Shown here one piece after another: positions 1,449 to 41,303 of a stretch of DNA of 64,000 nt. A program made the translations under genes and the position numbers. The stretch is taken from positions 6,518 through 70,517 of the forward strand of contig CAVILQ010000005.1 of NCBI GenBank assembly GCA_963643715.1, written 5' to 3'. This stretch comes from a bacterium. Lineage in GTDB: Bacteria > Bacillota_I > Bacilli_A > RFN20 > CAG-288. Every line of letters begins with the position of its first letter. The stretch's first letter is position 1. The notes under the pieces were generated by a model. That model had not been told where the DNA came from. It worked only from the letters and a program-made list of their open reading frames with translations, and made no database searches.

Positions 1449-2002
1449 GAGAAACTATACATTCTCACTAGAAAAAAGAGTTGGTTTTTGCGTTTGATTT
1501 AGATGAGCAGGATATATTTTCAAAAGATTACCTAGAAAAAGAATAGATGCTATTTTTCGATTGTGAAGGACGATAAGGAGGATATATTCAAACAAATCAA
1601 TAAGATTGCAAATTGTTTAGGACAGTCTAATATTCACTTTGACTGGTCTCTTCTAGTCGATGCCTGTCACACCTTTCAAAAGTCGATCAGCATCGCTGAT
1701 TATCTCTCCTTTTCAGAACAAAATCGTATTTAGTTAAAGAGGCTTGTAAGTCTTTGAGAGAGATTTATCCTGACTTAAATCGATATCTACAGAATATATT
1801 TTTGAATCACTTTCTGTTTATCCGATTTCCGTTTGTTTCTGAAAAAAACTACTTATGGTGAGAATTCGATTTGTCTAATGTATCTTGTCTGCCTTTGGAT
1901 ATTTAACCTCATCTTCAAACTAAAAAGAAGACAAAAGAGGAATTTGTCGATATCACGGGTAAATTCTTCCGTGTTGCAGAGCATAGCAATCTTTATGATG
2001 TG

Positions 2003-2029
2003 ATTGCGTTTTATTATCGGAAACGCAAT
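2003..2029. promoter_or_regulatory. 9-bp inverted repeat ATTGCGTTT-N9-AAACGCAAT about 30 bp upstream of the GH32 gene. It is a candidate operator.
   Basis: The two arms form a perfect inverted repeat in the sequence. Its position is consistent with a repressor site for the sucrose genes. No regulator gene is adjacent. Confidence 0.25.
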
Positions 2030-2061
2030 AATTGATAATGTTTGTTTAGAGGTAATGAATC

Positions 2062-3504
2062 ATGAAAGACTTAAAAGAAGCTAATGACTATCTGAAAAGC
2101 CGTAAGCATGAAAAGGAAGAATATAGACCGAGATATCATTTGTCACCAGATTTTGGATGGTGCAATGATCCTCATGGGATCGTTTTCTTTCATGGAAAAT
2201 ATCATATTTTCTTTCAATACAATCCCTATGATACAAAGGCAGAGAACATCTTCTGGGGACATGTGACAAGTGAAGATTTGATTCATTTTTCAAACACGTC
2301 TTGTGCGATTGCTCCGGATATGAAATATGACAATTCAGGATGCTGGTCTGGATCATCGATTGTGATCGATGACACATTGTATCTTGTCTATACTGGCTTC
2401 TCAAAACACGATGATGGAAAGTTTTATCAGACTATCAATGTTGCTTATAGTAAAGATGGCATCCACTTTGCAAAGTATGAAAATAATCCTATCATCGATA
2501 CATGCGATATTCCTTCTTTTGGTTCTATTTATGATTTCAGGGATCCTTGCATTTTCAAACAAAACGGTAAGCTCTATATCATTGTCGGAAACAAATCCAA
2601 GGATGAAAAAGAAGCAATGCTTCTGCTTTATGAAGGAGAAGATATATTCCATTTCCATTTTTTAAAAACATTGGTTTCTTCATCTAAGTTTGGAACGATG
2701 TTTGAGTGCCCGAATTTAGTCTCTTTCCAAAATCAGGACTATATTGTGATGTCGCCTCAGAATGTAAAAGAAAGAGATGGAGACTTTGCGAATGTATCTT
2801 CTTGTGTCTATTTCCCTTTGAAAGGAGATATGATTCGTGATGAACAGACCTTGGATGAAGTGATAGAGATCGATCACGGCCTTGAGTATTATGCACCAAC
2901 TATTTACGACGATGAAAAGATAGCTCTTAATTGGTTCCAGATGTGGGGAAGAAGATATTATCTGAACGAAATCACCAACGATTTCATCAACTCCTTCTCC
3001 TTGTTTAAGAGAGTTGGTGAAAGAAATGGAAGACTGTATTTTAAACCTCTTTCCTTCGATGCAATTGTGACTGATAGGAAAGAAGAAAAACTCACTCTAA
3101 ATGGAAAATCAGACGCCTATCATTTTTCACATTATCTTATATGTTTCAAAAAAGAAGATAATCTATTATTTACATTTGTCTTTTCATATTCTAAAAACGA
3201 CTATATCACCTTCTCTGTTGACTCTAGGAACAATACCTATACTTTAGATAGAAGTCATGCTCTTATCGATTTAGGCGGAGAAGAAAAAGGAAGCCCAAAG
3301 AATGGAATCCGATATCTAAAAAAGAACATGCCTTCTCAGTTTGAATTCGATATTTACATCGATAATGCAAATATCGAAATCTACTTTGATGATTATGAGG
3401 AAAGTTTCTCATTCCTTCATTTTTCAAAAGAGAATAAACTGATCATGGAAAGCAATAAAGAAGTTCAAATCAGTATGATAAGAGAAAACATCGAGGTGAA
3501 ATAG
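2062..3504 (+). CDS. scrB: glycoside hydrolase family 32 (sucrose-6-phosphate hydrolase / beta-fructofuranosidase)
   Basis: The GH32 N-terminal catalytic signature HLSPDFGWCNDPHGIVFFHGKYHIFFQYNPY matches the WMNDPNG block. RDP and EC motifs follow (FRDPCIF, MFECPN). Confidence 0.85.
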   Translation: MKDLKEANDYLKSRKHEKEEYRPRYHLSPDFGWCNDPHGIVFFHGKYHIFFQYNPYDTKAENIFWGHVTSEDLIHFSNTSCAIAPDMKYDNSGCWSGSSIVIDDTLYLVYTGFSKHDDGKFYQTINVAYSKDGIHFAKYENNPIIDTCDIPSFGSIYDFRDPCIFKQNGKLYIIVGNKSKDEKEAMLLLYEGEDIFHFHFLKTLVSSSKFGTMFECPNLVSFQNQDYIVMSPQNVKERDGDFANVSSCVYFPLKGDMIRDEQTLDEVIEIDHGLEYYAPTIYDDEKIALNWFQMWGRRYYLNEITNDFINSFSLFKRVGERNGRLYFKPLSFDAIVTDRKEEKLTLNGKSDAYHFSHYLICFKKEDNLLFTFVFSYSKNDYITFSVDSRNNTYTLDRSHALIDLGGEEKGSPKNGIRYLKKNMPSQFEFDIYIDNANIEIYFDDYEESFSFLHFSKENKLIMESNKEVQISMIRENIEVK

Positions 3505-3505
3505 A

Positions 3506-4408
3506 ATGGTATTAGTTATCGGTGAAATATTGATGGATATGATTGGGAATGAGAATATTGATTCTCTTCAGGTTCAAGGCAAATTAGGTGGAGCACCGCT
3601 AAATGTGGCTAGCGACTTAGCTGACTTAGATGTCGACACTATGTTCTATGGTGTTATCGGAAAAGACATTATCGGTCAGTTTCTGAAAGGACAGTTAAGA
3701 GATAGAAAAGCGAACTTTTCGATTCTTTTGAATGAAAGAGAGGATAGAGAAACAACCATCGCATTCTTCTTGAAGGATAAAGGTGAATTTCAGTTCTTGA
3801 GGAAGAATGGTGCAGATTATGATTTTGATAAAGAAACTCTGCTATCTCTTCCATATCAAAATGCAAAGATCATTCATTTTGGTTCTCTTTTCCTTTCCGA
3901 TAGGAAAGCAAGAGAAACTGTCTTTGAATGTATCAAAGAATATAAGAAAGAAGACAAACTGATATCCTTTGATGTTAATTATCGGTCTGATATCTTTAAA
4001 GACACAGATGATATCGTCTCTTACTATAAGGAGATGATTTCCTGTTCCGATATTGTGAAACTGACTAAGGATGAACTGACATTATTGACCGGAATAGATG
4101 ATATGAATAATGCTTTGAAAACATTTGATGATAGAAAAGTCATCCTGATAACAGATGGCGAAAATGGTTCATACTGCTATCTAAACGGAAAACTGTATCA
4201 TAAAGCGAGTGAGAAAGTGAATCCAATCGACACAATCGGATGTGGTGATTCCTTTATGGCTGGATGCTTGTCCTATATTCATAATCATTCACTTTCTACA
4301 AAAGAGAATATTTTAGACATGCTCTCACGTGGAAATGAGTGCGGGAAAAGAACCTGTCTTGTCAGTGGTGCGCTACACGGATATCACAGTTTAGAAGATG
4401 TGAAATAA
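3506..4408 (+). CDS. scrK: fructokinase (PfkB-family carbohydrate kinase)
   Basis: It carries the PfkB N-terminal GG motif (LGGAPLNVA) and the C-terminal DTIGCGDSFMAG signature. It is translationally coupled to the GH32 gene, starting 2 nt after its stop. Confidence 0.8.
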   Translation: MVLVIGEILMDMIGNENIDSLQVQGKLGGAPLNVASDLADLDVDTMFYGVIGKDIIGQFLKGQLRDRKANFSILLNEREDRETTIAFFLKDKGEFQFLRKNGADYDFDKETLLSLPYQNAKIIHFGSLFLSDRKARETVFECIKEYKKEDKLISFDVNYRSDIFKDTDDIVSYYKEMISCSDIVKLTKDELTLLTGIDDMNNALKTFDDRKVILITDGENGSYCYLNGKLYHKASEKVNPIDTIGCGDSFMAGCLSYIHNHSLSTKENILDMLSRGNECGKRTCLVSGALHGYHSLEDVK

Positions 4409-4411
4409 AGG

Positions 4412-5272
4412 ATGTGTGTATTAGGAGTGGAGTGTTTTTATATGAATTATATATCGCTGTTCGTTAGTCTAGCCATCGTGATTATTGGCGTTTCCGTATT
4501 TGTCTTTTTTCTATTGCGAAATAAAAAGTATAAAAGATTTATCCTAGAGAAAAGTGAAGCTTTAAAGATACAATCGAATATTAATGCTGCATTTTGCTTT
4601 TATGATGTGGAGCAGATCAATCTTTCACATAATTATGATAATGAGAATTTCTATAATGACATAAGCTGTTTAGACTTTCTCATCTACTTTTTGAGAGATT
4701 ATGAGAAGTTTACAAAAAAACAAATCGAGACCGCTCACCAAAACGCAAGATTATACACTCAGTATATGGAAAGAATGAAAAGGGAAGCATATCCTAGTTT
4801 ATCTAGCTTTCATCTTGATGGTGAGAGACTGAGTGTAAAGAAACTGAATAAAGTCGAAAAGAAAGAATTCGAATCCAGAATGAAGAATCCGATTACAAGT
4901 ACCTCTGCAACAGTTTTATTACGAAGAGTCGATCTCCATGAGAAGAGAACCTATGAAACGAAGAAAGCAGTCTTCAATCAAGGAACAATCATTTCTTGTT
5001 TAGAGAAACTCGATAACAAGAAAAAAGGTTTCTATCAGGATAGTGAAATCTGGGATGCTCTTTGTAGAGTGGAAAGAGGAAAGGTGACGAATAAGCTTCG
5101 TTTCTACATATACCATCGAGATGGAAACCGATGCGTACGATGTGGATGCAGAAAAAACCTAGAAGTCGATCACATTTATCCAATCAGTAAAGGCGGGAAG
5201 ACTACACCAAACAATCTTCAGACATTGTGTCATCGATGCAATGTTGAAAAAGGAGCAAGGACGGACTATTAA
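4412..5272 (+). CDS. membrane-anchored HNH endonuclease-domain protein. The true start may be the ATG at 4442.
   Basis: An N-terminal TM helix (YISLFVSLAIVIIGVSVFVFFLL) is followed by a C-terminal HNH motif (CVRCGCRKNLEVDHIYPISKGGKTTPNNLQTLCHRCNVEKG). Confidence 0.7.
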   Translation: MCVLGVECFYMNYISLFVSLAIVIIGVSVFVFFLLRNKKYKRFILEKSEALKIQSNINAAFCFYDVEQINLSHNYDNENFYNDISCLDFLIYFLRDYEKFTKKQIETAHQNARLYTQYMERMKREAYPSLSSFHLDGERLSVKKLNKVEKKEFESRMKNPITSTSATVLLRRVDLHEKRTYETKKAVFNQGTIISCLEKLDNKKKGFYQDSEIWDALCRVERGKVTNKLRFYIYHRDGNRCVRCGCRKNLEVDHIYPISKGGKTTPNNLQTLCHRCNVEKGARTDY

Positions 5273-5327
5273 GCTGAACTTTTATATTCGTAGCAAAACG
5301 GGTGTACTTTCGCTTTGTCTTTGTTGT

Positions 5328-5341
5328 TGATGAATCTTATC
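5328..5341 (+). repeat. Inverted-orientation copy (TGATGAATCTTATC) of the island 3'-end motif.
   Basis: It is a 14/14 match to the reverse complement of the motif at 8797-8819. It lies in the intergenic region between the HNH gene and the FtsH-like gene. Confidence 0.4.
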
Positions 5342-5544
5342 GCTCTTTGCTATAAATCCGTACTGTTGAACTAAGATAGTGATGGTACAGCATTATGGTT
5401 TTAGAGTGCGCCTTTGGCGGAAAAAAATATATATAAAAAGGTGATTGTGTGAAACTTCTGATCAATCCTATAAGTTTTCATCTATAAGATGATCAGAAGC
5501 TTCACTATCATACATTCACTTCGTTATAACATTAAATCTGCAAC

Positions 5545-6912
5545 TTATTCTTTTGTCTTCTCAATTATCTGCTTGATTTCACTTCCGGAGAGAACAGTGT
5601 TTTCCATGAGTGCGGTAGCAAGAGCTTCAATCTGCTTTTTACCATTTGAGATCAGGTTAAGAGTCTTCTCTTCATACTCTTGAAGCAACTGTGCTGTTTT
5701 TTCAATACGCTTATCGTTTTGTTTTCCGCGAGGAGTGCTAAAAATCCTAGAGTCTACATTCATACGGATGTCACAGAACTCTAATCCATACAATCCGTTG
5801 TCCATTAATGTGGCGATAAGCGCTATTGCTTTTTCGATATCCCCATTGGCTCCGGTTGTCTGTGTTCCAGTCATAAGCGGGACTGCCACATATCCACCTA
5901 AAGCGATGCAAATCAGGTTGATGACTCTTTCCATAGTGAGAACCTTCTCTTTCATATCGAAGGCGCATTCGAAATGTCCAAGGGATTTGCCGCGTTTGAT
6001 AATCGTGGCTCCGTTAACATTATCTGGATCGAGCAAGTAGTTCACATAAGCGTGTCCTGCTTCGTGGTAGGCGATATATTTCAACTCACTGTCATCAAAG
6101 CTGTTATCATGAGCGACATCCTCGAATCGAATCTTGTCGATGGCTTCACGGAAATCAGAGAAACATACATTATCTCTACGTTCTGATACGGATTTCAGGA
6201 TGACTTCATTGACGACCGTTTCAATGTCAGCACCAGTCATAGAGATTGTGCTGCGAACAAGTTCATCCAATGTGAAATCATCTGCTACGTTTACCTTTTT
6301 CAAGAAGTGCTGGAATATAAGCTTTCTATCTTTTTCGCTTGGCGTAGGGAAACAGATCTGTCGATCGAATCTTCCGCTTCGTGTCAGTGCATCTCCGAGA
6401 TAGATCATCTCATTGCAGGTTCCAATTACCATTATATTCTTGTTGGCTTCATGAATCTTATCCAATTCATGAAGCAGAATCTTTTGAATCACAAGGTTCT
6501 CTTTAACATCATAGAGACGAGGATGATAGCCTGCTATCTTCTCAATTTCATCAATGAAGATAATACCAGTGTCAATCTCTTCGGTTTCCTTGAATCTTTC
6601 CTTTACCTCTTCCTCAATCGTTCTTTTATGCTCGATTGCGTCAGATTCACTGATTTCGATAAAAGGAACATTGAGGTATTCTTTCATGTCACGGACAATG
6701 CGGCTCTTACCGGTTCCGGGTTTTCCGTATAAAAGCCAACCACGAGGGAAATGACCGCCCTTTGTAGAATACAGTTCTGGATTTTTAAAGATGTCGATGA
6801 TCTGATAGGCTTCTTTTCTGATATCGTTGTAACCAGCGATATGAGGGAAGACTTTATCTAAGACTTCGGTTGAAACTGCTTTGCTCTTTGTGTTTTTCTT
6901 TAAATTGTTCAT
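5545..6912 (-). CDS. cytosolic FtsH-like AAA+ ATPase fused to an M41 zinc-peptidase domain, with no transmembrane or periplasmic region
   Basis: It has the FtsH-type AAA module (LLYGKPGTGKS; Walker B IIFIDEIEKI; SRH ...TRSGRFDRQICFP). An M41 HEXXH follows in IAYHEAGHAYVNYLLDPDNVNGATIIKRGKSLGH, matching FtsH TAYHEAGHA...IIPRGRALG. The protein is 455 aa and starts directly with the AAA N-terminal region. Confidence 0.75.
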   Translation of the reverse strand: MNNLKKNTKSKAVSTEVLDKVFPHIAGYNDIRKEAYQIIDIFKNPELYSTKGGHFPRGWLLYGKPGTGKSRIVRDMKEYLNVPFIEISESDAIEHKRTIEEEVKERFKETEEIDTGIIFIDEIEKIAGYHPRLYDVKENLVIQKILLHELDKIHEANKNIMVIGTCNEMIYLGDALTRSGRFDRQICFPTPSEKDRKLIFQHFLKKVNVADDFTLDELVRSTISMTGADIETVVNEVILKSVSERRDNVCFSDFREAIDKIRFEDVAHDNSFDDSELKYIAYHEAGHAYVNYLLDPDNVNGATIIKRGKSLGHFECAFDMKEKVLTMERVINLICIALGGYVAVPLMTGTQTTGANGDIEKAIALIATLMDNGLYGLEFCDIRMNVDSRIFSTPRGKQNDKRIEKTAQLLQEYEEKTLNLISNGKKQIEALATALMENTVLSGSEIKQIIEKTKE

Positions 6913-7009
6913 TAATTATTTTTCCTTTTTGTTTTCATACCTTCTCGACAAGATTTATGTTTACATTTTAAGTTCCTCTATATGAGTTTCCTTTTGCTCT
7001 TCAACGCAT

Positions 7010-7029
7010 GATTAAATGATTAGCCTCAT
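7010..7029 (-). repeat. Degenerate copy of the 3'-end motif (minus strand: ATGAGGCTAATCATTTAATC), downstream of the 130-aa gene.
   Basis: It fits the pattern ATGA..CT.ATCA.TTAAATC that is shared with the copies at 7568-7590 and 8797-8819. Confidence 0.3.
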
Positions 7030-7046
7030 TGGATAGAAGACTATCG

Positions 7047-7439
7047 TCAATATGCTAGTTCTTCCTCTTCTTCCTTTAGAAGCATATCCTCATAGTACCA
7101 ATCAAGATAGTCATCAGATATGATATCTTTTCTTTTATCGCGCTCTTTTCTTTCTAAAATTCGAATTCCATTCTCTTCTTCGATATACTTGATGTAGGAA
7201 GTTAGTTTTTCAATCGTATGACGGATGCAATGGTCTTTTGCTGCTCTCACATTCAATGCTTTTCTGAGTGATACACCGCTAGAGAAGTAGATATTGACGC
7301 CTCTATGATAGTCCTGGGTGAAGAGATAGTACTGCTTTCCGTTATGTTCGACATAGAAGTTATGATTGCCAAGTCTATTGATTCTGCAACTGATGATTGA
7401 ATCCATGGTTAATTCCTCCTTTTTGGATTGCATCTTCAT
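7047..7439 (-). CDS. hypothetical 130-aa protein with an acidic C-terminus
   Basis: It is a clean ORF with a strong RBS (AAAGGAGGAATTAACC before the ATG). I recognise no domain. It has a poly-E tail. Confidence 0.5.
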   Translation of the reverse strand: MKMQSKKEELTMDSIISCRINRLGNHNFYVEHNGKQYYLFTQDYHRGVNIYFSSGVSLRKALNVRAAKDHCIRHTIEKLTSYIKYIEEENGIRILERKERDKRKDIISDDYLDWYYEDMLLKEEEEELAY

Positions 7440-7513
7440 TTTTCTGCTTCCTGATAAGGGTTTGATTACATGGTCAACTCTCTATCAGGTTTCCATTCTT
7501 GATGGATACATCT

Positions 7514-7546
7514 TAAAAATCAGTTTCTGTTTGATGAACAGAAACC
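7514..7546 (-). terminator. Rho-independent terminator downstream of the Vps4-like AAA gene
   Basis: A perfect 9-bp stem GTTTCTGTT-loop-AACAGAAAC is followed by a T-run on the minus strand. Confidence 0.6.
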
Positions 7547-7567
7547 GATTTATGGCGAGTGAAAAGA

Positions 7568-7590
7568 TGATTTAACTGATACGATTCATC
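7568..7590 (-). repeat. 3'-end motif copy (minus strand: GATGAATCGTATCAGTTAAATC) overlapping the AAA gene stop
   Basis: It matches about 20/22 positions of the copy at 8797-8819. It encodes the C-terminal ...EMNRIS*. Confidence 0.45.
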
Positions 7591-8696
7591 TCAAATTCTT
7601 TGATTTTGTCTACGTCAGCAGAGAATACGCTGCTGTAAACGGAATTTCTGATTGTGTGTAAATCTGAATTGCTGATTTTAGAATCAAGGCCAGATTCAAT
7701 TTCTCGGTTGATGGATAACATTTTCAATTGCTCACAGAATTCACTCACATCAGCCCCGTTGAACCCTGAGGTAAGATTCACGGCTTCTTCGTAATCGAAG
7801 TCATCATCAATGGGTAGTCCGTTGAAGGCATGTTGAATCATCTGTAATCTTGCTTCTTCATCGGGGAGCCCGATTTTCACCATCACATCAATCCTGCCGG
7901 GTCTTATGAATGCCGAGTCGATATCCCAAGGACGATTGGTGGCTGCGATGATAATTGGCTTATTCTTGCTTCGATTGATACCATCCATCTGAGCAAGTAG
8001 CTCAGGGACAATACGGTTCATCGGTTGAGAATATCCTCCTCTTTTGCATCCTATTGCTTCGAATTCATCGAAGAAGATGATAGACCTAGAAAACTTTCTC
8101 GCCTCTTCAAATAGGGCTGCTATATTCTTCTCTGTCTTTCCGAACAATTCAGAGACAAGATCAGAACAGCGTATTGGATAGAAGCATGCATTGGTTTCCT
8201 GAGCGATTGCTTTTGCTAATAATGTCTTTCCGGTTCCTGGAACACCATAGAACAGAATGCCACCGCTGTTTGCTTTATGATATTTGCTATAGATAGCGGA
8301 ATAGTTGATTGGATTGATGATGCGAGACTCGATTTGCTTCTTAGCTTCATTCAATCCTGCTACATCGGAGAACTTAACACCTGTGTTGTGAATCGGTTTG
8401 AATAACGCGTTTTTGGTGCTGAGTTCCTCTTGTGCCACCTTCTTATCAAGGCTTAATTTTAGTTTTTGTTCGGACTTTTCTGGCTTGATTTCTTCAGACC
8501 ATTCCTTAAGTTCTTTCGAACGTTCAAGTCTTTCCTTCTTTAAATCGCCTTCACTGTAATCGGCAATCTTTTTCATTATCATACTTGCTTCAGCAAGGTA
8601 TAAATATGCAGTATCAGCCGAATTCTCTCGTAAGGCTTTAAAACCCTTATCGTATAACTTATTGTACTCTTCAAAAAGTTTTGAGATTATGTCCAT
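7572..8696 (-). CDS. Vps4/katanin-like AAA ATPase with an N-terminal MIT-like helical domain
   Basis: The classic-clade AAA module (ILFYGVPGTGKTLLAKAIAQE; IIFFDEFEAIG; second region of homology ATNRPWDIDSAFIRPGRID) is preceded by about 60 aa of helical, MIT-like sequence. It has no protease domain and no TM helix. Confidence 0.7.
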   Translation of the reverse strand: MDIISKLFEEYNKLYDKGFKALRENSADTAYLYLAEASMIMKKIADYSEGDLKKERLERSKELKEWSEEIKPEKSEQKLKLSLDKKVAQEELSTKNALFKPIHNTGVKFSDVAGLNEAKKQIESRIINPINYSAIYSKYHKANSGGILFYGVPGTGKTLLAKAIAQETNACFYPIRCSDLVSELFGKTEKNIAALFEEARKFSRSIIFFDEFEAIGCKRGGYSQPMNRIVPELLAQMDGINRSKNKPIIIAATNRPWDIDSAFIRPGRIDVMVKIGLPDEEARLQMIQHAFNGLPIDDDFDYEEAVNLTSGFNGADVSEFCEQLKMLSINREIESGLDSKISNSDLHTIRNSVYSSVFSADVDKIKEFEMNRIS

Positions 8697-8704
8697 ATAT
8701 GTTT

Positions 8705-8722
8705 CCTTTTAATAACTCGAAA
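8705..8722 (-). promoter_or_regulatory. Conserved leader motif (minus strand: TTTCGAGTTATTAAAAGG) 10-30 nt upstream of the AAA gene start
   Basis: A 16-nt block identical to the one at 9731-9746 sits ahead of the next gene. It is a candidate promoter or leader element. Confidence 0.4.
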
Positions 8723-8796
8723 TCAGCACTTCCATGAGTCTAGTTAAACCCATGAAAGTGCAAGAAGTCAGATCAAACATTAAGAGGCGAATAGAA

Positions 8797-8819
8797 GATT
8801 TAACTGATAAGATTCATCA
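8797..8819 (-). repeat. 3'-end motif copy (minus strand: TGATGAATCTTATCAGTTAAATC), just downstream of the SprT-like gene stop
   Basis: I compared the sequence with 7568-7590, 7010-7029 and 5328-5341. Confidence 0.45.
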
Positions 8820-8849
8820 TAGATTCTGTCGCTTCTCGAACACAAGAGA

Positions 8850-9716
8850 CTAAGCATACATAAATCTCTGCTCATTGTGACTATTGACAATTCTGATGAG
8901 ATTGCTGAGCTCTTTTGTGTCATCATAGGAATTTGGAAGTTCGAGGATAGACACGAATCTAGAAGATTTTGTTGGCGTGTCAAGTGTAGAGTCATAATTT
9001 CCGATAAGATAACGATTGACTAATTTACATATGATGCGATCGTTAAGCATCACATAAGGAAGGAGTTCCTTTAGTGGAAGCAAAGTAAAGTCCTTATCCT
9101 TGATGACTCTATTCTCGATATAGTAGAAGGTGAAGTCATTCTTAAGACTCGTATCTAATAAAGAGAAGTAGATGGAAACAGATTTGTCAAAGAGTTCCGG
9201 ATTGTTTTCAGTTTCCATCTTCGCAAGCAGAATTTTCTGTTCTTCCCTTGTCAGAGAAAAGAAAGAATTCATTTCTTTAACAGGAGGAACTGTGTTAAAT
9301 CGACAAATGTTATACTTTGTGTTTTGACTCACAAAGTCTGCGAGTTTGTTCCACTGAATTCCGTGACCCTCATTCTCACCATTCAGTCTTGACTTGACAT
9401 GAAGGAGTTCATGAATGATGACATTGATGCACAGATCCTTGTCTTCGATAATCTTATTCTTGATAGTGATATAGTATACGTTCTTCGAAAGAGTGATATT
9501 AGGATAGTCATTAGTTGTCCAATCGGACGCTTCCGAAACGAGAACGCTACTGGTTGAACCATATAATTTGATTTTGTGGTTCACGTTCCTTTCCGTATAA
9601 AAAGTAATATCTTCTGTGACAGGAATATTGATGGATTCCAAAACAGAGACAGCTTCTTCGATATACGGAAGGATCTTACTCGAAATCGTCTTTGAATAAT
9701 GAATGTTTTCTCTCAT
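8850..9716 (-). CDS. SprT-like / DUF45-like HExxH zinc metallopeptidase domain protein
   Basis: The block IIHELLHVKSRLNGENEGHGIQWNKLADF fits the HExxH-(x)n-HGxxW pattern of the SprT family. RBS AAGGGG lies upstream. Confidence 0.5.
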   Translation of the reverse strand: MRENIHYSKTISSKILPYIEEAVSVLESINIPVTEDITFYTERNVNHKIKLYGSTSSVLVSEASDWTTNDYPNITLSKNVYYITIKNKIIEDKDLCINVIIHELLHVKSRLNGENEGHGIQWNKLADFVSQNTKYNICRFNTVPPVKEMNSFFSLTREEQKILLAKMETENNPELFDKSVSIYFSLLDTSLKNDFTFYYIENRVIKDKDFTLLPLKELLPYVMLNDRIICKLVNRYLIGNYDSTLDTPTKSSRFVSILELPNSYDDTKELSNLIRIVNSHNEQRFMYA

Positions 9717-9727
9717 TTGTTTTTACC

Positions 9728-9746
9728 CCTTTTTAATAACTCGAAA
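9728..9746 (-). promoter_or_regulatory. Second copy of the conserved leader motif (TTTCGAGTTATTAAAAAGG), upstream of the SprT-like gene
   Basis: It is a 16/16 match to 8707-8722. Confidence 0.4.
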
Positions 9747-10041
9747 ACTTGTAGTTTTACGAGCTTGAAACGAAACGGATTGAAGTGTAGAAGAGCACAT
9801 CAAACGTAGGTGAATCAAGGATAATGACTTAATAGATGACGACTTGAGAATTGAACTGGAAACTTTTTTCATTCCTCCTTTATGATTTCGGATTCGTAGA
9901 TCTGATGACATACCAAACAAAACAAAGTAATAAGAATCAAGCGATACCTCCTTTTGCTCTTTCTTAAACGGAAACCAATAACCATTGGTTTTCACTACGA
10001 TTAAACGACACCACTCTTTTAATAGGGAAAAATTAGTAAAA

Positions 10042-10099
10042 GTCGATGAATCACACCTACAAGTTGATTTTTATAAAGTGAGGTGCTGATTCATCGAAC
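10042..10099. promoter_or_regulatory. Long imperfect hairpin (about 17-bp arms, 22-nt loop) with GATGAATC in both arms, in the intergenic or promoter region
   Basis: The arms GTCGATGAATCACACCT ... AGGTGCTGATTCATCGAAC are near-complementary. Confidence 0.35.
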
Positions 10100-10185
10100 G
10101 CGGCGAATAGAAGCTAAGCATGTTGTATACTTATCGACATATTTGAATCATATAGGAAAGCATTAGTTCCGATTTTGTGAATTTA

Positions 10186-10212
10186 GAAAAAGCCCACGTT
10201 TATGGGCTTTTT
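10186..10212. terminator. Bidirectional Rho-independent terminator (AAAAAGCCCAC-GTTTA-TGGGCTTTTT)
   Basis: An 8-bp GC-rich stem is flanked by an A-run and a T-run. It lies immediately 3' of the 904-aa gene on the minus strand. Confidence 0.7.
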
Positions 10213-10239
10213 CAAGAATTAGTAATTTCAAAAACATCT

Positions 10240-12954
10240 CTATTTTGTCAATTTTAGGTAGAAATCGAAATATTTTAATCCCTGTTCATCATTGGATAAT
10301 TCGTAGTGCAGATGTGGGTTCTTTTCCGTTATGAATATTTCTTTGAGAATTTCTTTTGATTTGCTATCTTCAATCAGTTCCTTCAATAACGGATAATAAA
10401 GGTTCCAGTAGAAACTCTTTTTGGATTTTTTATCACCCTTCTCAGATAAGACGAATACAGCTTTGATTCTTCCTGGCTTTAGGATATCGTATTTAGCCAT
10501 GCAATCTCTTATGGCATCTTTTTCATCAATCTTATTCTTTCGTAGTAGTTCTTCGAAAGTGTATACGGATTCATCTTTGCCTTCATCTGATTTAGAACGT
10601 AGCATCTTCTCTTTCTTCCTGAATTCAGCTGAGAGTTGTTTGTATTCGCTTAAAAAGTCTTTTGCTTTCTTTTTATCGGTTTCCGTAGAGCCTAAATCCT
10701 TGCGAAGGAAATCGACGATTTTCGATCTGCATCTTTCTACATTCTTCTCTCTTTTCAGTTCTACTTGTTTTACATATTCCATCGTTGTCTTATAGGGCAC
10801 TTTGACAAGTTTGTCTTTATGGAAACTATTCTGAATGATAGAGAAGAACTGCGGATATTTATATGTTTTGTATTTCTCTTTGATTTCCTTGATGACTGTT
10901 GCAGTATCGATACCATAATCTCTCTTTGCGCGGTCTATCTCAATACCGGATAGGACAGCAAGAATACAGATATCCCCATAGATATCCTTTTCTTCCTCTG
11001 TAAGAGCAAAGGTGGATATATGATTGTTTATCTTGTCCCAAAGGATGGAATTCAAGAACTGAGAAAGGTCGACAATTTTGCCGATATCTTTACCGGAATT
11101 CGCATTGATATCATCTAATTTTGCCGCTTCTGTGACGGAATTATTCGTTATAGGTAAATCGATATTGCTGACAGGGACTAAGAAAAGACCATCCTGTTTT
11201 TCAGCATGTGAGACTAGAATAGGATTGTTGATGATGAACATGGTATCGGAATCATAATCACATCCGTTGAGTCTTTGCTGGATGTTTTCATTGACTGCAT
11301 TGACATGAACGATATGTTTTCCGATATCAAAATAATCCCAAATCGGATCATTACACAAATCATTCCTCACGAGATATACGTTTCCCATTGTAATATGAGG
11401 GTAACGGACACAAAGAAGTTTCTGATCATCTTCATCAAAACGATTTGTTCTGATATATCCTGGCTTTAAGATAGATGATTTTCCATCCCATTTTCCGATG
11501 ATGTATTCTAAGTATTCAGGTCCGTTACCGAATAAGGTAGCATTTGTACCTGTCAGGTAACATTTTCCACATCTAGCCCTATCCTTTAGAACTCTTAGTG
11601 CACTATCCTGAAAATCATAGTAAAAGTCTACGTTTGAAAATCCGGGATTGATTTTCAACAGTTCCATGATGAGGTTTCCTTTTACCTGGTATTCGTTTTC
11701 TGTTTCATCGGAAATAGAAGATTCATCTATCTTTTTGCCTCTTCTTAGATTGATGAATCCAGAGATAAACTGTGCAAAGAAAGTAGGATCATTTCTTGCG
11801 TTGTATATAGCATCAATGTAAGGATGGAACAGTTGATCGACATCCTCTTTCTGAAGATTGACTGTGTTCAGCAATTGATAGGAACTTGATACCTGTTTAC
11901 CAAAACAGAACTTTGGTGCTTTATCTGTCTTAACGACACCGAAACTGTCATCGACAATATTGGTCCACCCTCTTATGTTCTTCTCAGAGAAACCATCATA
12001 GAACTTTAAAAACTTAAGGCAGCTTTCTGATACGACCATTTCGATGTCCTCGATGCTTTTAGCAAATGTCACTATGCCTGTTTTCTTTTTATGCTTCTTA
12101 TCTACATCATTTCCTTGTGAGAATGAATCTTTCAATTGCTCGATAGTTGTGATGTTGTTATCGAGAAACCATTTTTGTAGTTTAGTTCTGAAACAGCACG
12201 CCTTGAAGAAACGGTTTCTAAGTAAAAGCATATGACTTTTTTCATATCCGTTTTTTATAAAGACCTGATCATCAATAAGGCCTTCCCCATCGAATATATT
12301 GTTTTCGATCTCACAATCGTGAATTGTAGACTTTAAGGAACATTCCTTTTTTCTTGTCACTTCTACTACGGAATCAGTAAAGGTGACTTTCTTGTCTTTT
12401 ACAAAAAGAATATGATCAAGTGGAATGGAGATGCATTTCTCAATGCTACTCATCGTCAATGATTTATACGCTTCAAAGGAAGATAGATTGTGTATAGTAG
12501 GATCGAATTCGATTCCACATTGAGTCCAATGATTCATCTCATCATATAGTTGTTCGATTATGAAAAGGCATCTTCCATCACGACTGCTTCCGCTTGTTCT
12601 TTTATATCGTACATAGTGTTGTCCATTTAAATAGAAGCCCTTTTCATATAGATATTCCCTAGCGTGAAAAACTTCCTCTTTGTCTTTCTTGCTTTTTGCC
12701 ACATCGAATAGAAGGTTGACAAGAAGATAATCAGAGTATTTTATAGTTGGCTTTTTCTTGTTTCTTCTATATTTATCTAGACACTTGAAAAGTTCGATAT
12801 GATCCAACGAATTTGAGTTTTTGAATGAGATAAGACTTTTTAATTTCTTGTCATCAAATAGGGCACCGTTATCGATTCCGTTTGGGGTGCCATGATAGAC
12901 CTCATAATAAGGTAGATATAAGGTATCATCATTCTGTTTCTTTGTGTCTGTCAT
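10240..12954 (-). CDS. single-chain two-barrel (double-psi beta-barrel) RNA polymerase-like protein of the YonO / QDE-1 / multisubunit-RNAP catalytic superfamily
   Basis: One segment, LKDRARCGKCYLTGT, matches the beta-subunit DPBB block (E. coli AGDKMAGRHGNKGVIS). The downstream segment RYPHITMGNVYLV...GKHIVHVNAVNENIQQRLNGCDYDSDTMFII matches the beta' NRAPTLHRLGIQAF...[26 protein letters not shown] block. The catalytic loop here reads DYDSD. The order of the barrels (beta-like, then beta'-like) is conserved. Confidence 0.6.
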   Translation of the reverse strand: MTDTKKQNDDTLYLPYYEVYHGTPNGIDNGALFDDKKLKSLISFKNSNSLDHIELFKCLDKYRRNKKKPTIKYSDYLLVNLLFDVAKSKKDKEEVFHAREYLYEKGFYLNGQHYVRYKRTSGSSRDGRCLFIIEQLYDEMNHWTQCGIEFDPTIHNLSSFEAYKSLTMSSIEKCISIPLDHILFVKDKKVTFTDSVVEVTRKKECSLKSTIHDCEIENNIFDGEGLIDDQVFIKNGYEKSHMLLLRNRFFKACCFRTKLQKWFLDNNITTIEQLKDSFSQGNDVDKKHKKKTGIVTFAKSIEDIEMVVSESCLKFLKFYDGFSEKNIRGWTNIVDDSFGVVKTDKAPKFCFGKQVSSSYQLLNTVNLQKEDVDQLFHPYIDAIYNARNDPTFFAQFISGFINLRRGKKIDESSISDETENEYQVKGNLIMELLKINPGFSNVDFYYDFQDSALRVLKDRARCGKCYLTGTNATLFGNGPEYLEYIIGKWDGKSSILKPGYIRTNRFDEDDQKLLCVRYPHITMGNVYLVRNDLCNDPIWDYFDIGKHIVHVNAVNENIQQRLNGCDYDSDTMFIINNPILVSHAEKQDGLFLVPVSNIDLPITNNSVTEAAKLDDINANSGKDIGKIVDLSQFLNSILWDKINNHISTFALTEEEKDIYGDICILAVLSGIEIDRAKRDYGIDTATVIKEIKEKYKTYKYPQFFSIIQNSFHKDKLVKVPYKTTMEYVKQVELKREKNVERCRSKIVDFLRKDLGSTETDKKKAKDFLSEYKQLSAEFRKKEKMLRSKSDEGKDESVYTFEELLRKNKIDEKDAIRDCMAKYDILKPGRIKAVFVLSEKGDKKSKKSFYWNLYYPLLKELIEDSKSKEILKEIFITEKNPHLHYELSNDEQGLKYFDFYLKLTK

Positions 12955-13122
12955 AAAAAAGAGTCCTTTCTATGCGTATTTCAATCATATCATTTACCGA
13001 TAGGAAAATGGTAAGCATTCTCATTTTTTCTCAAATCTCATTATAGAAAAAGGCTATCAAGCATTCTTCATAGAGTATATGTTAGATGCTTTATAGCCAT
13101 GTATTCTTGGATGGATTATCAA

Positions 13123-17626: not shown

Positions 17627-18498
17627 TGTATGATCCCCCTTTGTATCATTCTGTTTAAGAATGTCTCCTTCATGTCATCGCCAGTGGATAGAAGCATGTA
17701 TTCAGCTTCTCTGGAATGACAGAAGTTCTCGGCTTTCTGAGTGACGAATTCTAAGGCTTTCTTATAGGCGTTTAAGACATCACGGTTAACATTGTCTTTG
17801 AAGAATTTGGAATCGTTCTCACTGTCATGAAGAATCAGTTTTCCACGATAAGTAGGAGTGATTTCTTCCTCTGCTAACACTTGAAGACAAAGGACATCTC
17901 TTTTCTTTCCTCTTAAGTAATCGATAGCGTCGGTGTAGTTATTGTCAGTGAGAAAATCAGAAATCAGAATCGATTTGCCGTCACCATATCCGACCATGGA
18001 ACGGATGATGGCTTCTGAGATATAAGACTCCCCTTCAAACTTGATGTTGTTGAGCTTGTTGATAGAGGTCAAGAATGCGTCTTTTCCAATGATGTTCTCT
18101 AAGACAGGAATAGCCTGATTTCCTTGTATGAGATAGATGTTTACTTTATCCATCTCTTTTAAGGATAGATAGGAGAATAGAGTCGCTAAACGTATCGCGT
18201 AATCGCCTTTACCGAAATATTTCATCGAAGCGGAGCCATCTATGTAAATCCTAGTCTGCATCTGTCTCTCATCGAGGTAGAGTTTCAGATACATCTTTTC
18301 GAATTTACCATAGATGTTCCAGTCGATTTTTGTGACATCATCGCCTTCGATATAATCACGGTAATCGGCGAATTCGCAGGAGGAACCATACTTCTTCGAT
18401 TTGTGGTTCCCACCGAAAAGACCGGCGACATTATCTTTGACCGATAAAGAGAGAAGTTCGATTTGCTGAAGAAATTGTTCGTCGATCGCTTGTTTCAT
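17623..18498 (-). CDS. DUF58-family protein (MoxR partner)
   Basis: The DUF58 signature FADYRDYIEGDDVTKIDWNIYGKFEKMYLKLYLDERQ is present. The gene overlaps the MoxR gene. Confidence 0.7.
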   Translation of the reverse strand: MKQAIDEQFLQQIELLSLSVKDNVAGLFGGNHKSKKYGSSCEFADYRDYIEGDDVTKIDWNIYGKFEKMYLKLYLDERQMQTRIYIDGSASMKYFGKGDYAIRLATLFSYLSLKEMDKVNIYLIQGNQAIPVLENIIGKDAFLTSINKLNNIKFEGESYISEAIIRSMVGYGDGKSILISDFLTDNNYTDAIDYLRGKKRDVLCLQVLAEEEITPTYRGKLILHDSENDSKFFKDNVNRDVLNAYKKALEFVTQKAENFCHSREAEYMLLSTGDDMKETFLNRMIQRGIIQ

Positions 18499-18501
18499 AG
18501 T

Positions 18502-19488: not shown

Positions 19489-19509
19489 TGTTTTTAACCT
19501 TTCTTTTAT

Positions 19510-24980: not shown

Positions 24981-25258
24981 TATGGCGACGATAAAAGCAC
25001 ATGCTTAAAGTAAACTTAAAACACTGAGAATGTGTATAACGAAAAATTGAAAGTACTGAAAAAAACAGTCAAACCAATCAAGCGCTTACAATCAGATATT
25101 TAATAATCGAAAATCATAGCAAATCACAAATATTCAATAATTTTTCATGAAAACTAATGGATTTTCTAATTATTCTGTTTATGCCTTTTTAATCTTGAAA
25201 TTGTCAATGGCTTTAAGGTTTATGAATAATATTGAAAGTTAGTTTAGGAGGTATAGAT

Positions 25259-37312: not shown

Positions 37313-37343
37313 TTCAACTTATTGACGCAGAAAGGAGCTTTTC

Positions 37344-41288: not shown

Positions 41289-41303
41289 AAAGGGGAAATT
41301 CAT

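What the first reader, a model, noticed from the sequence alone, without database searches (positions are those of the whole stretch)
5545..6912. Cytosolic FtsH paralog that lacks membrane anchoring
Canonical FtsH is membrane-tethered through two N-terminal TM helices and a periplasmic domain. This 455-aa protein starts directly at the AAA module and keeps an intact M41 HEAGH site. A soluble FtsH-like processive protease encoded in an accessory island suggests a dedicated substrate, such as an island toxin or antitoxin or a phage protein, rather than membrane-protein quality control.
Basis: partly seen in the sequence, partly recalled or inferred. Interest (0 to 1): 0.55.

Follow-up and report, generated by a model that had tools for sequence, protein, structure and literature searches.

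The report
Soluble FtsH-like protease without pore loop
This gene encodes a membrane-anchor-free relative of the bacterial quality-control protease FtsH; its ATPase and zinc sites are intact, but it and its whole family have lost the loop that normally pulls substrates in, so it is probably a specialised protease of a mobile gene cluster, not a free-floating copy of FtsH.

Summary
ORF 5545-6912 (-) is an intact 455-aa AAA + M41 protein. It has no membrane segment, and an in-frame stop lies two codons upstream. Walker A/B, the arginine fingers, HEAGH and the Asp zinc ligand are all present. Its AlphaFold model matches FtsH, YME1 and AFG3L2 over the full length, and dN/dS is 0.065.

- **Accessory location: confirmed.** The gene lies in an ~11-kb segment that is missing from a close relative.
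- **Processive protease: doubtful.** The protein belongs to a single clade of anchor-less FtsH relatives. All 39 members examined have lost the pore-1 loop (canonical EMFVGVGA; here EHKRTI-E). The DGF motif and the AEE motif are also gone.

The gene appears to be co-transcribed with a conserved 119-aa protein. It is syntenic with a YonO-like single-subunit RNA polymerase, a SprT-like peptidase and a Cdc48-like AAA ATPase. More distant family members sit in kinase/vWA/PP2C (TerY-P-like) operons, next to WYL regulators and small membrane peptides.

My best reading is a soluble, ATP-controlled zinc protease of a mobile or conflict module. It would act on handed-over or unstructured clients and would not thread them autonomously. 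I found no published description. I rate it a new variant of a known kind, of moderate interest.

The parts
5545..6912 (-). CDS of the anchor-less FtsH-like AAA + M41 protein (455 aa)
6916..6918 (-). In-frame TAA two codons upstream of the ATG; excludes an N-terminal extension
6923..6926 (-). AGGA Shine-Dalgarno-like motif, 10 nt before the ATG
   Evidence: read from the sequence
6703..6726 (-). Walker A, GKPGTGKS (aa 63-70)
   Evidence: G63, G66, G68, K69 invariant
6619..6630 (-). Position of the pore-1 loop. H95-K96-R97-T98 replaces canonical M-F-V-G, with a one-residue deletion after it
6547..6564 (-). Walker B, IIFIDE (aa 117-122)
   Evidence: D121, E122 invariant
6361..6420 (-). Sensor-1 N167 and second region of homology with R178, R181, R184 (aa 165-184)
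   Evidence: N167, R178, G180-R184 invariant
5566..6096 (-). Peptidase M41 domain (aa 273-449)
6052..6066 (-). Zinc site HEAGH (aa 283-287)
5839..5841 (-). Asp358, equivalent to the third zinc ligand in GANGDIEKA
   Evidence: G354, D358 invariant; its role as third ligand is from solved FtsH structures (own knowledge)
7047..7406 (-). ORF119, the conserved upstream partner gene. No terminator lies between it and the FtsH-like gene. The longer 130-aa reading starts at 7439
5420..5505 (-). Terminator-like hairpin plus U-run downstream of the FtsH-like gene
   Evidence: I11; z -5.6
7517..7551 (-). Terminator-like hairpin after AAA374; it separates the SprT/AAA unit from the ORF119/FtsH-like unit
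   Evidence: I16; z -6.6
7572..8696 (-). AAA374, a Cdc48/p97-D2-like classic AAA ATPase with a hydrophobic pore loop ELFGK (8136-8150). It is a variable cassette flanked by 39-nt direct repeats at 7561-7599 and 8789-8827
   Evidence: (D1)
8850..9716 (-). SprT-like zinc peptidase (HELLH at 9399-9413)
   Evidence: (26.6 bits, cut-off 25.6)
10240..12954 (-). ORF904, a YonO-like single-subunit two-barrel RNA polymerase homologue (Asp triad DYDSD at 11245-11259). It is followed by its own terminator hairpin
   Evidence: (phrog_8308, E 5e-75)
2032..13114 (.). Variable (accessory) segment absent from the close relative L265. It holds GH32, PfkB, HNH, the FtsH-like gene, ORF119, AAA374, SprT and ORF904

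Best explanation
**Shown**
- The gene is intact and under strong purifying selection.
- It encodes the complete cytosolic part of an FtsH-type AAA + M41 zinc metalloprotease with no membrane anchor.
- It belongs to a single clade of anchor-less FtsH relatives. These keep the ATP-binding and hydrolysis motifs and the zinc site, but all lack the pore-1 loop.
- It sits in an ~11-kb segment that a close relative lacks.
- It forms its own likely transcription unit with a conserved 119-aa protein.
- It is syntenic, across about 28% protein identity, with a YonO-like RNA polymerase and a Cdc48-like AAA ATPase.

**Inferred**
- It assembles into a soluble FtsH-like ring in which ATP binding and hydrolysis control assembly or gating of the M41 chamber. 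It does not drive hand-over-hand threading.
- It therefore cleaves unstructured, pre-unfolded or specifically presented clients. Candidates are ORF119 itself, proteins of the element, or proteins of an invader. ORF119 could equally be the adaptor or regulator. A neighbouring classic AAA ATPase, where present, could act as an optional unfoldase.
- Functionally it is the proteolytic component of a mobile-element or conflict module, not a membrane-protein quality-control enzyme.
For: - **Domains, motifs and fold:**
- **No anchor:**
- **Purifying selection:** dN/dS 0.065.
- **Pore-1 loop and clade:** the loop is lost in 39 of 39 anchor-less members, which form one clade. 12 canonical FtsH keep EMFVGVGA and the one-TM L195 keeps EKYVGVGA. 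HEXXH is kept in 38 of 39.
- **Family size:** about 30 representatives of 420-480 aa at 50% identity among the best 150 hits of an exhaustive search.
- **Accessory status:** empty site in L265, plus HNH and AAA374 indels.
- **Transcription unit:** hairpins with z -4.7 to -6.6 after ORF904, AAA374 and the FtsH-like gene; none between ORF119 and the FtsH-like gene (z -0.4).
- **ORF119 association:** ORF119 homologues have an anchor-less FtsH-like gene within about 1 kb downstream, for at least one copy, in nine of the ten loci examined (window, L001, L002, L167, L006, L171-L175). In L176 the fetched DNA ends before a second copy could appear.
- **Synteny with RNAP and AAA:**
- **Relatives in conflict-type operons:** TerY-P-like kinase/vWA/PP2C operons with rearranged gene order, WYL regulators and small TM peptides. 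The defence or signalling role of TerY-P triads is as described in PMC11090510.
Against: - No biochemical data exist. Hexamer formation, ATPase activity and proteolysis are all unverified.
- Loss of the pore-1 loop does not prove loss of translocation. Pore-2 or other loops could substitute.
- Basic residues at the loop position (HKR, RK, KK) in the window's subclade might grip acidic or nucleic-acid ligands.
- The AEE to AVP change, at the motif holding E. coli Glu479, may weaken proteolysis.
- ORF119 has no recognisable fold, so its role as adaptor or substrate is a guess.
- The partner AAA374 is absent from L167 and lies in a separate transcription unit.
- No integrase, toxin or known defence gene lies in the window's cluster. 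PADLOC gives only generic AAA similarity to IetA and TRIP13.
Confidence: 0.5

Rival explanations
1. One reading: an autonomous, soluble, processive FtsH that unfolds and degrades one dedicated folded substrate, such as an island toxin or antitoxin or a phage protein, by itself.
For: - Walker A/B, sensor-1, the arginine fingers, HEXXH and the Asp ligand are intact.
- The whole chain has the FtsH fold.
- Purifying selection acts on the gene.
- It lies in accessory DNA.
Against: - The pore-1 aromatic-hydrophobic-Gly motif is absent family-wide, with a 1-5-residue deletion.
- DGF is DKI.
- The loop position is not conserved within the family, which argues against a new gripping motif.
- No toxin-antitoxin pair is recognisable in the cluster.
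Confidence: 0.17
2. A stacked two-ring machine. The Cdc48-like AAA374, or the double-AAA proteins of relatives, docks on the FtsH-like ring, unfolds and threads the substrate, and the FtsH-like protein serves only as the proteolytic chamber, as in Cdc48-20S.
For: - AAA374 keeps a hydrophobic pore loop, ELFG, aligned to p97 D2 MWFG.
- A 44%-identical AAA370 and a 681-aa double AAA lie in the L171-type loci. A 719-aa double AAA lies in L006.
Against: - AAA374 is a cassette flanked by direct repeats, and it is absent from L167.
- It is separated from ORF119/FtsH-like by a terminator hairpin.
- The TerY-P-type loci L003, L168 and L267 have no second classic AAA.
- In the window AAA374 follows the SprT-like gene, which suggests a SprT/AAA pair instead.
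Confidence: 0.13
3. Not a protease in practice. It is an ATP-dependent chaperone, remodeller or scaffold, or a nucleic-acid-binding ring, that merely retains an M41-like domain. Analogues are FtsHi motors, YjoB, and the reported DNA binding of the Lon-like BrxL.
For: - The pore loop is lost.
- The Glu479-containing AEE motif is lost.
- One family member has HIAGH.
- Basic H-K-R sits at the pore position in this subclade.
- The gene is linked to an RNA polymerase gene.
Against: - HEXXH is kept in 38 of 39 members. Asp358 and G354 are invariant in the 26-sequence alignment. This is hard to explain without catalysis.
- The basic residues are not conserved in the wider family.
Confidence: 0.12
4. 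A membrane-associated enzyme after all. It would be recruited in trans by a small membrane protein, or it would act on small membrane peptides as substrates.
For: - A 54-59-aa 2-TM family (motif KTPxNLxGYYG) lies next to the FtsH-like gene in L003/L168, L171-L174 and L006.
- A 37-39-aa TM peptide is shared by L267, L171 and L006.
- LemA-like membrane proteins occur in L003 and L267.
Against: No homologue of either small TM family exists anywhere in the 64-kb window, nor in L001 or L167. For this gene the association is therefore absent in cis.
Confidence: 0.08

Closest known systems
Canonical bacterial FtsH (MEROPS M41; TIGR01241) and mitochondrial YME1 / AFG3L2
   Same: - One classic-clade AAA module, a lid and an M41 peptidase domain.
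- Walker A/B, SRH arginines, HEXXH and the Asp ligand.
- The full-length fold matches 3kds, 7tdo, 6az0 and 6nyy (TM-score 0.69-0.79).
- 27-34% sequence identity.
   Different: - No N-terminal TM helices or extracytoplasmic domain.
- Pore-1 loop MFVG is replaced by HKRT, with a deletion.
- DGF is DKI and AEE is AVP.
- Scores 249 bits against a cut-off of 600.
- Lies in accessory DNA and forms a separate clade.
FtsHi / Ycf2 chloroplast import motor subunits (8xku, 8xqw)
   Same: They are FtsH-derived proteins that have given up one half of the FtsH mechanism, and they are structural neighbours.
   Different: - They show the opposite loss. FtsHi lost the zinc site but keeps the motor function (own knowledge). 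Here the zinc site is kept and the pore-1 loop is lost.
- FtsHi is membrane-bound and eukaryotic.
'FtsH ternary systems' of Kaur, Burroughs, Iyer and Aravind 2020 (PMC7159879)
   Same: An FtsH-type AAA protein recruited into a predicted conflict system together with vWA proteins. A MoxR-DUF58-vWA-vWA operon lies directly upstream in the window.
   Different: - Their component has two FtsH-type AAA domains, the first inactive, and no M41 domain is described.
- The window's MoxR/vWA operon persists without the FtsH-like cluster in L265 and L263, so the adjacency looks incidental.
TerY-P triad modules (vWA + PP2C + Ser/Thr kinase; Anantharaman 2012, cited in PMC11090510)
   Same: Relatives 37-45% identical to this protein are encoded inside kinase-vWA-vWA-PP2C operons (L003, L168, L267). 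The components are conserved but the gene order is rearranged.
   Different: The window's cluster has no kinase or PP2C. An M41 protease has not been described as part of TerY-P systems in the texts I could read.
Multi-copy ftsH / hflB of phytoplasmas and membrane AAA+ ATPases in their potential mobile units (PMC6981957)
   Same: Extra FtsH-type paralogues occur in a Bacillota-related lineage, and related membrane AAA+ ATPase copies lie in mobile units.
   Different: Those paralogues keep two TM segments and the pore signature.
p97/Cdc48 D1 ring and NSF D2 ring (non-aromatic pore loops; assembly or regulatory rings)
   Same: A functional analogy only: a classic AAA ring with intact nucleotide site whose pore loop lacks the aromatic residue. 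The p97 D1 loop KLAG aligns at this position.
   Different: Those rings are one tier of a two-tier ATPase and are not fused to a protease.

Membership tests
FtsH (M41 AAA protease); defining sites as listed in PMC6981957 | Two N-terminal transmembrane segments with an extracytoplasmic domain | tested here: not met
   - Walker A starts at residue 63 and a stop lies two codons upstream.
- No PF06480 domain.
- Kyte-Doolittle maximum 0.22 before Walker A, against 2.3-2.7 in canonical FtsH.
FtsH (M41 AAA protease) | Walker A and Walker B motifs | tested here: met
   GKPGTGKS at 63-70 and IIFIDE at 117-122, invariant in the family.
FtsH (M41 AAA protease) | Pore signature (aromatic-hydrophobic-Gly; MFVG) | tested here: not met
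   H-K-R-T at 95-98 plus a one-residue deletion. The signature is absent in 39 of 39 anchor-less relatives and present in 13 of 13 TM-bearing FtsH.
FtsH (M41 AAA protease) | Second region of homology with arginine fingers and sensor-1 Asn | tested here: met
   N167 and RSGRFDR at 178-184, invariant.
FtsH (M41 AAA protease) | HEXXH zinc motif and conserved Asp (third ligand) | tested here: met
   HEAGH at 283-287 and D358 in GANGDIEKA, invariant.
FtsH (M41 AAA protease) | Conserved Glu of the GGRxAEE motif (E. coli Glu479) | tested here: not met
   GGYVAVP aligns to GGRVAEE, and the position is variable in the family. Its assignment to Glu479 is from my own knowledge.
FtsH (M41 AAA protease) | Leucine-zipper residues of the C-terminal helix | not tested
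   The C-terminal helices are present in the model, but the residues were not mapped.
FtsH (M41 AAA protease) | Score above the curated equivalog cut-off (TIGR01241, 600 bits) | tested here: not met
   249 bits, with profile positions 147-598 only.
FtsH (M41 AAA protease) | Fold of the cytosolic region | tested here: met
   AF2 model with pLDDT 87 and pTM 0.81. The top Foldseek hits are FtsH, YME1 and AFG3L2, at E 1e-26 to 1e-28.
FtsH (M41 AAA protease) | Hexameric, ATP-dependent proteolysis | not testable with these tools
   Needs purified protein.
FtsH ternary conflict system (Kaur et al. 2020) | Component with two FtsH-type AAA domains, the N-terminal one inactive | tested here: not met
   A single AAA domain is followed by M41.
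FtsH ternary conflict system (Kaur et al. 2020) | Obligate linkage to a MoxR and vWA pair | tested here: not met
   - A MoxR-DUF58-vWA-vWA operon is adjacent.
- It is kept without the cluster in L265 and L263.
- It is absent from the other family loci.
TerY-P-triad-linked operons (seen for relatives) | Ser/Thr kinase, PP2C phosphatase and vWA genes in the same operon | tested here: not met
   None lies in window 5545-12954. The feature is met in L003, L168 and L267.
IetAS anti-phage system | IetA-type ATPase above the model cut-off, plus an S8 protease partner | tested here: not met
   The IteA model scores 60.7 bits against a cut-off of 510. The PADLOC hits cover the generic AAA core only. 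There is no subtilase gene.
FtsHi-type pseudo-proteases | Loss of the HEXXH zinc site | tested here: not met
   HEAGH is intact.
YonO-like single-subunit RNA polymerase (for neighbour ORF904) | Sequence relationship to phage YonO-type proteins, and a catalytic Asp triad | tested here: met
   - phrog_8308 at E 5e-75.
- tblastn hits include phage genes annotated 'RNA-dependent RNA polymerase' and an unannotated gene of Bacillus phage BUCT082, which I take to be SPbeta-like from my own knowledge.
- DYDSD at aa 566-570.
- The Asp triad is described as essential in YonO.
- Activity was not tested.

The most novel reading that the evidence does not exclude
The anchor-less, pore-loop-less FtsH clade is the dedicated proteolytic effector or regulator of undescribed conflict systems. 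These could serve anti-phage defence or element maintenance. They come in at least two forms: TerY-P-type kinase/vWA/PP2C operons, and elements with a YonO-type RNA polymerase. The protease would control a small partner, which might be ORF119, a WYL regulator or a small membrane peptide. It would do so by ATP-gated, non-threading cleavage, a mode of action not known for any FtsH-family enzyme.
Probability: 0.3. Interest if true: 0.75.

Novelty: new variant of a known kind. Interest (0 to 1): 0.57.

Why it matters
FtsH is the textbook membrane-anchored AAA protease, and its mechanism is understood as pore-loop-driven threading into the M41 chamber. This clade has shed both the anchor and the pore-1 loop. 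Yet it keeps every nucleotide-site and zinc-site residue under purifying selection.

That makes it a natural experiment on what the AAA ring of an AAA protease does when it no longer threads. The ring might control assembly, gating or allostery.

The clade's repeated placement in variable regions suggests a proteolytic component of mobile-element or defence biology that current catalogues do not contain. Those regions also hold kinase/vWA/PP2C triads, WYL regulators, a phage-type RNA polymerase and small membrane peptides. PADLOC gives only generic AAA hits.

If confirmed, it would add a new effector or regulator type and a simple soluble model for M41 protease enzymology.

Tried and rejected
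1. **Genome-contig scan with the family alignment.** It was flooded by canonical FtsH (33% identity or less).
2. **Metagenome-contig scan with an N-terminal alignment.** One pattern ([FL]YGxPGxGK[ST]) was too general. Nearly all loci were canonical FtsH. Only L203, L185 and L193 were extra anchor-less members, and their neighbours were not analysed.
3. **Viral contig scans and tblastn against phage and plasmid collections.** No close relative was found. The best phage hits are 24-30% identical FtsH-like genes. The gene is therefore not from a recognisable sequenced phage or plasmid.
4. **Long multi-AAA proteins at the top of the exhaustive search.** I first took these for fused versions of the family. 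Their sequences show TM segments and canonical MFVG or YVG loops. Their scores are high only because several AAA domains add up, so I rejected them as members.
6. **A split FtsH with the anchor in a neighbouring gene.** Rejected, because ORF119 and the other neighbours have no hydrophobic segment.
7. **A small 2-TM partner gene in the window.** None was found by tblastn or by a small-ORF scan.
8. **Proteasome-beta-like assignment of the 197- and 215-aa proteins in L171.** Only sub-threshold PF00227 hits and no PDB sequence hit. I keep this as a hint.
9. **The consensus terminator scan.** It listed no - strand sites, so I folded the spacers instead.
10. **GC content.** It does not mark the segment clearly: 0.34-0.41, against 0.33-0.44 in the flanks. 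There is no tRNA gene in the window and no integrase gene in the segment.
11. **YjoB, the soluble Bacillus AAA protein.** I considered it from memory as a relative. It is not among the best 60 of 173 PDB sequence matches, and I did not pursue it.
Full report
**1. The observation**

The - strand ORF 5545..6912 is real: ATG start, 455 codons.
- The codon two positions upstream of the ATG is TAA (6916-6918), so the reading frame cannot be extended.
- An AGGA lies 10 nt before the ATG.
- Pfam finds AAA (60-189, E 2e-24), AAA_lid_3 (212-256) and Peptidase_M41 (273-449, E 3e-23). It finds no FtsH extracellular domain.
- The NCBIfam FtsH equivalog aligns only from profile position 147 of 598. It scores 249 bits against a cut-off of 600.
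- The 62 residues before Walker A have a maximal Kyte-Doolittle score of 0.22. In 12 canonical FtsH the N-terminal parts reach 2.3-2.7.
- The only hydrophobic stretch, residues 330-348, is a helix inside the M41 domain of the model.
- The gene upstream, ORF119, has no hydrophobic segment either, so this is not an FtsH split into two genes.
- Walker A (GKPGTGKS), Walker B (IIFIDE), sensor-1 N167, RSGRFDR, HEAGH and Asp358 are all present. They are invariant in an alignment with relatives.
- An AlphaFold2 model (pLDDT 87, pTM 0.81) matches FtsH (3kds, 7tdo), YME1 (6az0) and AFG3L2 (6nyy) over the whole chain. TM-scores for these are 0.69-0.79.
- Against its orthologue in L167 the gene has dN/dS 0.065.

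TMHMM itself could not be run.

**2.

The sequence where FtsH carries its pore-1 loop, SDFVEMFVGVGA, reads SDAIEHKRTI-E here. HMMER aligns H-K-R to the Y-Y-G and W-V-G of an archaeal VCP-like ATPase.

I collected anchor-less relatives from the word-indexed search, the exhaustive HMMER search and fetched loci.
- In a neighbour-joining tree, all 39 anchor-less proteins form one clade, separated by a long branch from 12 canonical FtsH and one single-TM variant.
- Every one of the 39 lacks the aromatic-hydrophobic-Gly motif and carries a 1-5-residue deletion there.
- The 12 canonical proteins have EMFVGVGA, and the single-TM variant has EKYVGVGA.
- The residues at the loop position are not conserved within the clade. 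They are often basic in the window's subclade and acidic or Cys-rich in others.
- The DGF motif after Walker B is DKI. The GGRxAEE motif that contains E. coli Glu479 is GGYVAVP.
- HEXXH is retained in 38 of 39; P0224 has HIAGH.

From established knowledge, marked as such: the pore-1 aromatic and glycine residues (E. coli F228, G230) are required for FtsH proteolysis. In YME1 and AFG3L2 structures they form the staircase that grips substrate, and the DGF phenylalanine couples neighbouring subunits.

A clade that has lost all of this yet keeps its nucleotide and zinc sites under purifying selection is unlikely to work as a conventional processive unfoldase-protease.

**3. Size of the family**

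- The word-indexed search found about 25 clusters of 427-458 aa scoring 282-1011 bits. Canonical FtsH then follows at 218 bits or less.
- The exhaustive profile search lists about 30 representatives of 420-480 aa, at 50% identity, among its best 150.
- Long multi-AAA proteins high in that list are TM-bearing tandem FtsH with canonical loops. They score high only by summing domains.
- No close relative occurs in the phage, plasmid or IMG/VR collections searched.

**4. The surroundings in the window**

On the - strand, upstream to downstream, the genes are:
- **ORF904 (10240-12954).** It matches phrog_8308 (E 5e-75). It also matches phage genes annotated as RNA-dependent RNA polymerase, and an unannotated gene of Bacillus phage BUCT082 that I take to be SPbeta-like from my own knowledge. 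It has an Asp triad, DYDSD. It is therefore a YonO-like single-subunit RNA polymerase homologue (YonO is described).
- **A SprT-like peptidase (8850-9716; HELLH).** The Pfam hit is just above threshold.
- **AAA374 (7572-8696).** This is a p97-D2-like AAA ATPase that keeps a hydrophobic pore loop, ELFG.
- **ORF119 (7047-7406).**
- **The FtsH-like gene.**

Strong hairpins followed by U-runs lie after ORF904, after AAA374 and after the FtsH-like gene (z -4.7, -6.6, -5.6). The ORF119/FtsH-like spacer folds no better than shuffles (z -0.4). ORF119 and the FtsH-like gene therefore look like one transcription unit.

ORF119 has few homologues and is under purifying selection (dN/dS 0.08-0.22). Its model has three strands plus helices (pLDDT 74) followed by a disordered basic stretch and an acidic helix. 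It has no significant structural match.

**5. Accessory status**

- In L265, whose flanking VWA protein is 91% identical, nucleotide homology to the window covers 1-1432, a weak stretch at 1453-2031, and 13115-22000. The ~11 kb between is replaced by 1.6 kb carrying an AAA_14/DUF4143 gene. That 11 kb holds GH32, PfkB, HNH, the FtsH-like gene, ORF119, AAA374, SprT and ORF904.
- A more distant relative, L263, also lacks the cluster.
- Within the segment, the HNH gene is absent from L001 and L167. The AAA374 cassette (window 7593-8844) is absent from L167 and is flanked by 39-nt direct repeats.

However, there is no integrase gene in the segment, no tRNA gene in the window, and no clear GC signal.

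**6. Contexts of relatives**

- **(a) L167 (89% identical) and L006 (76%).** Both keep ORF119 directly upstream. L006 also has a WYL/WCX regulator, a small 2-TM gene, a MYG1-like exonuclease and a 719-aa double AAA nearby.
- **(b) L171-L176 (28% identical FtsH-like, 424 aa).** The gene order is:
  - a YonO-like RNAP (38% identical to ORF904);
  - an ORF119 homologue;
  - two small 2-TM genes;
  - optionally, a duplicated block with a WYL regulator and MYG1;
  - the FtsH-like gene;
  - two possible proteasome-beta-like proteins (sub-threshold PF00227);
  - AAA370 (44% identical to AAA374);
  - small proteins;
  - a 681-aa double AAA.
- **(c) L003/L004/L168/L169 (44-45%) and L267 (37%).** The FtsH-like gene lies in one operon with a Ser/Thr kinase, two vWA proteins, PP2C, an FtsK-gamma/WYL protein, a LemA-like protein and small TM peptides. 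The shared proteins are 52-70% identical between L003 and L267, but the gene order differs. That argues for functional linkage, not mere inheritance of a block.
- **(d) L005 and L170.** These show defence-island-like neighbours: MTaX1, a methylase, a KAP NTPase, DUF4143 ATPases and MACPF.

Kinase/vWA/PP2C triads are known as TerY-P modules. TerY-P-like modules have been reported as stand-alone anti-phage systems (PMC11090510).

The small 2-TM family is absent from the window.

**7. How it most likely works**

*Shown:* an intact, selected, anchor-less FtsH-fold protein with complete nucleotide and zinc sites and no pore-1 loop, in accessory DNA, paired with ORF119.

*Inferred:*
- It forms a soluble ring in which ATP governs assembly or gating of the M41 chamber. 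It cleaves clients that are unstructured, pre-unfolded or presented by a partner.
- ORF119 is the best candidate for adaptor, regulator or substrate.
- Classic AAA ATPases nearby may act as optional unfoldases.
- The module serves a mobile element or a conflict system.

I put 0.5 on this. The rivals are:
- an obligate two-ring machine with AAA374 (0.13);
- a non-proteolytic remodeller or nucleic-acid-binding ring (0.12);
- membrane recruitment in trans (0.08).

**8. Comparison with what is known**

- It works like, and descends from, FtsH. But it fails several defining features used to call FtsH (list in PMC6981957): TM segments, the pore signature, the Glu479 motif and the curated score cut-off.
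- It is not the 'FtsH ternary system' component of Kaur et al. 2020, which has two AAA domains and no M41 domain described. The adjacent MoxR/vWA operon is retained in genomes that lack the cluster.
- It is the mirror image of FtsHi, where the zinc site is lost and the motor kept.
- Phytoplasma multi-copy FtsH keep their TM segments and pore signature.
- Ten full-text searches found no description of an anchor-less, pore-loop-less M41 clade. The library is incomplete, so this is absence of evidence only.

**9. Verdict**

This is a new variant of a known kind. Interest is moderate (0.57). It would be higher if the conflict-system role or a non-threading mechanism were demonstrated.

Noticed in passing
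window 4412-5272 (+): A 286-aa HNH endonuclease gene directly follows pfkB. Its best NCBIfam hit is the HNH region of IscB, far below cut-off. The segment (window ~4413-5386) is absent from the otherwise 98%-identical L001 and from L167, so it is a recent mobile insertion, like a homing endonuclease.
   Followed up: partly
window 7561-7599 and 8789-8827: A 39-nt direct repeat (85% identical) brackets the AAA374 gene. L167 lacks exactly this 1.25-kb cassette (window 7593-8844). This suggests gain or loss by recombination between the repeats. A related motif, TGATGAATCTTATC, also occurs inverted at 5328-5341.
   Followed up: partly
window 7572-9716 (-): A SprT-like zinc peptidase is followed by a Cdc48/p97-like AAA ATPase. 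The pairing recalls the eukaryotic SPRTN/Wss1 and p97/Cdc48 partnership in repair of DNA-protein crosslinks (own knowledge). Whether the two act together here is untested.
   Followed up: no
window 10240-12954 (-): ORF904 is a YonO-like single-subunit two-barrel RNA polymerase homologue (Asp triad DYDSD at 11245-11259). It is encoded without any phage structural genes nearby. Homologues occur in unannotated human-gut phage contigs (L177, L178), which share nothing else with the cluster.
   Followed up: partly
L171-L176 (for example L171 8001-16250): These related loci encode a whole proteolysis suite after a YonO-like RNAP: an anchor-less FtsH-like protein, two possible proteasome-beta/Ntn-like proteins (sub-threshold PF00227), a Cdc48-like AAA and a double AAA. 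In L172-L174 the block 'ORF110 + two small 2-TM genes' is duplicated, with the ORF110 protein identical between copies, around a WYL regulator and a MYG1-like exonuclease.
   Followed up: partly
L003 11338-11793; L171 8399-9143; L006 9166-9324; L267 7825-7938: Two families of very small membrane peptides recur beside anchor-less FtsH-like genes in otherwise different operons. One is 54-59 aa with 2 TM segments and the motif KTPxNLxGYYG. The other is 37-39 aa. Neither is present in the window.
   Followed up: partly
window 1453-2031: A truncated remnant of a ~330-aa gene that is intact in L167 and L265 (68-84% nucleotide identity). Only broken 56-aa ORFs remain here.
   Followed up: partly
window 13123-19488 (-): A MoxR (AAA_3) - DUF58 - BatA/vWA - 881-aa vWA operon of the Bat/aerotolerance type lies directly upstream of the cluster. 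It is conserved in relatives that lack the cluster (L263, L265). Its homologues carry names from Erysipelotrichales and Bacilli MAGs, which gives a rough placement of the organism.
   Followed up: partly
window 21788-24946 (+) and 25232-28453 (+): Two large ORFs of 1052 and 1073 aa with TTG starts have no Pfam or PHROG match. Proteins of similar size (1039-1074 aa) lie beside the Bat-like operon in L260, L263 and L265.
   Followed up: no
protein P0210 (from a 787-nt metagenome contig): A 161-aa predicted protein joins the first ~36 residues of ORF119 to the last ~125 residues of the M41 domain. It is either a deletion variant of the ORF119/FtsH-like pair or an assembly artefact.
   Followed up: no
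phage records H23-H33 (for example Pseudomonas phage PA5oct, 175574-176884): Jumbo Pseudomonas phages encode FtsH-like proteins about 24% identical to the query over its full length. Depositors annotate them as ftsH or as a cell division protein. I did not check whether they also lack the anchor and the pore loop.
   Followed up: no
window 34292-42548 (+): Large surface-protein genes carry Listeria-Bacteroides repeats, BspA-type LRRs and a NEAT domain. Together with two LytS-type histidine kinases at 43453-47192, they point to a Gram-positive (Bacillota) gut organism.
   Followed up: no
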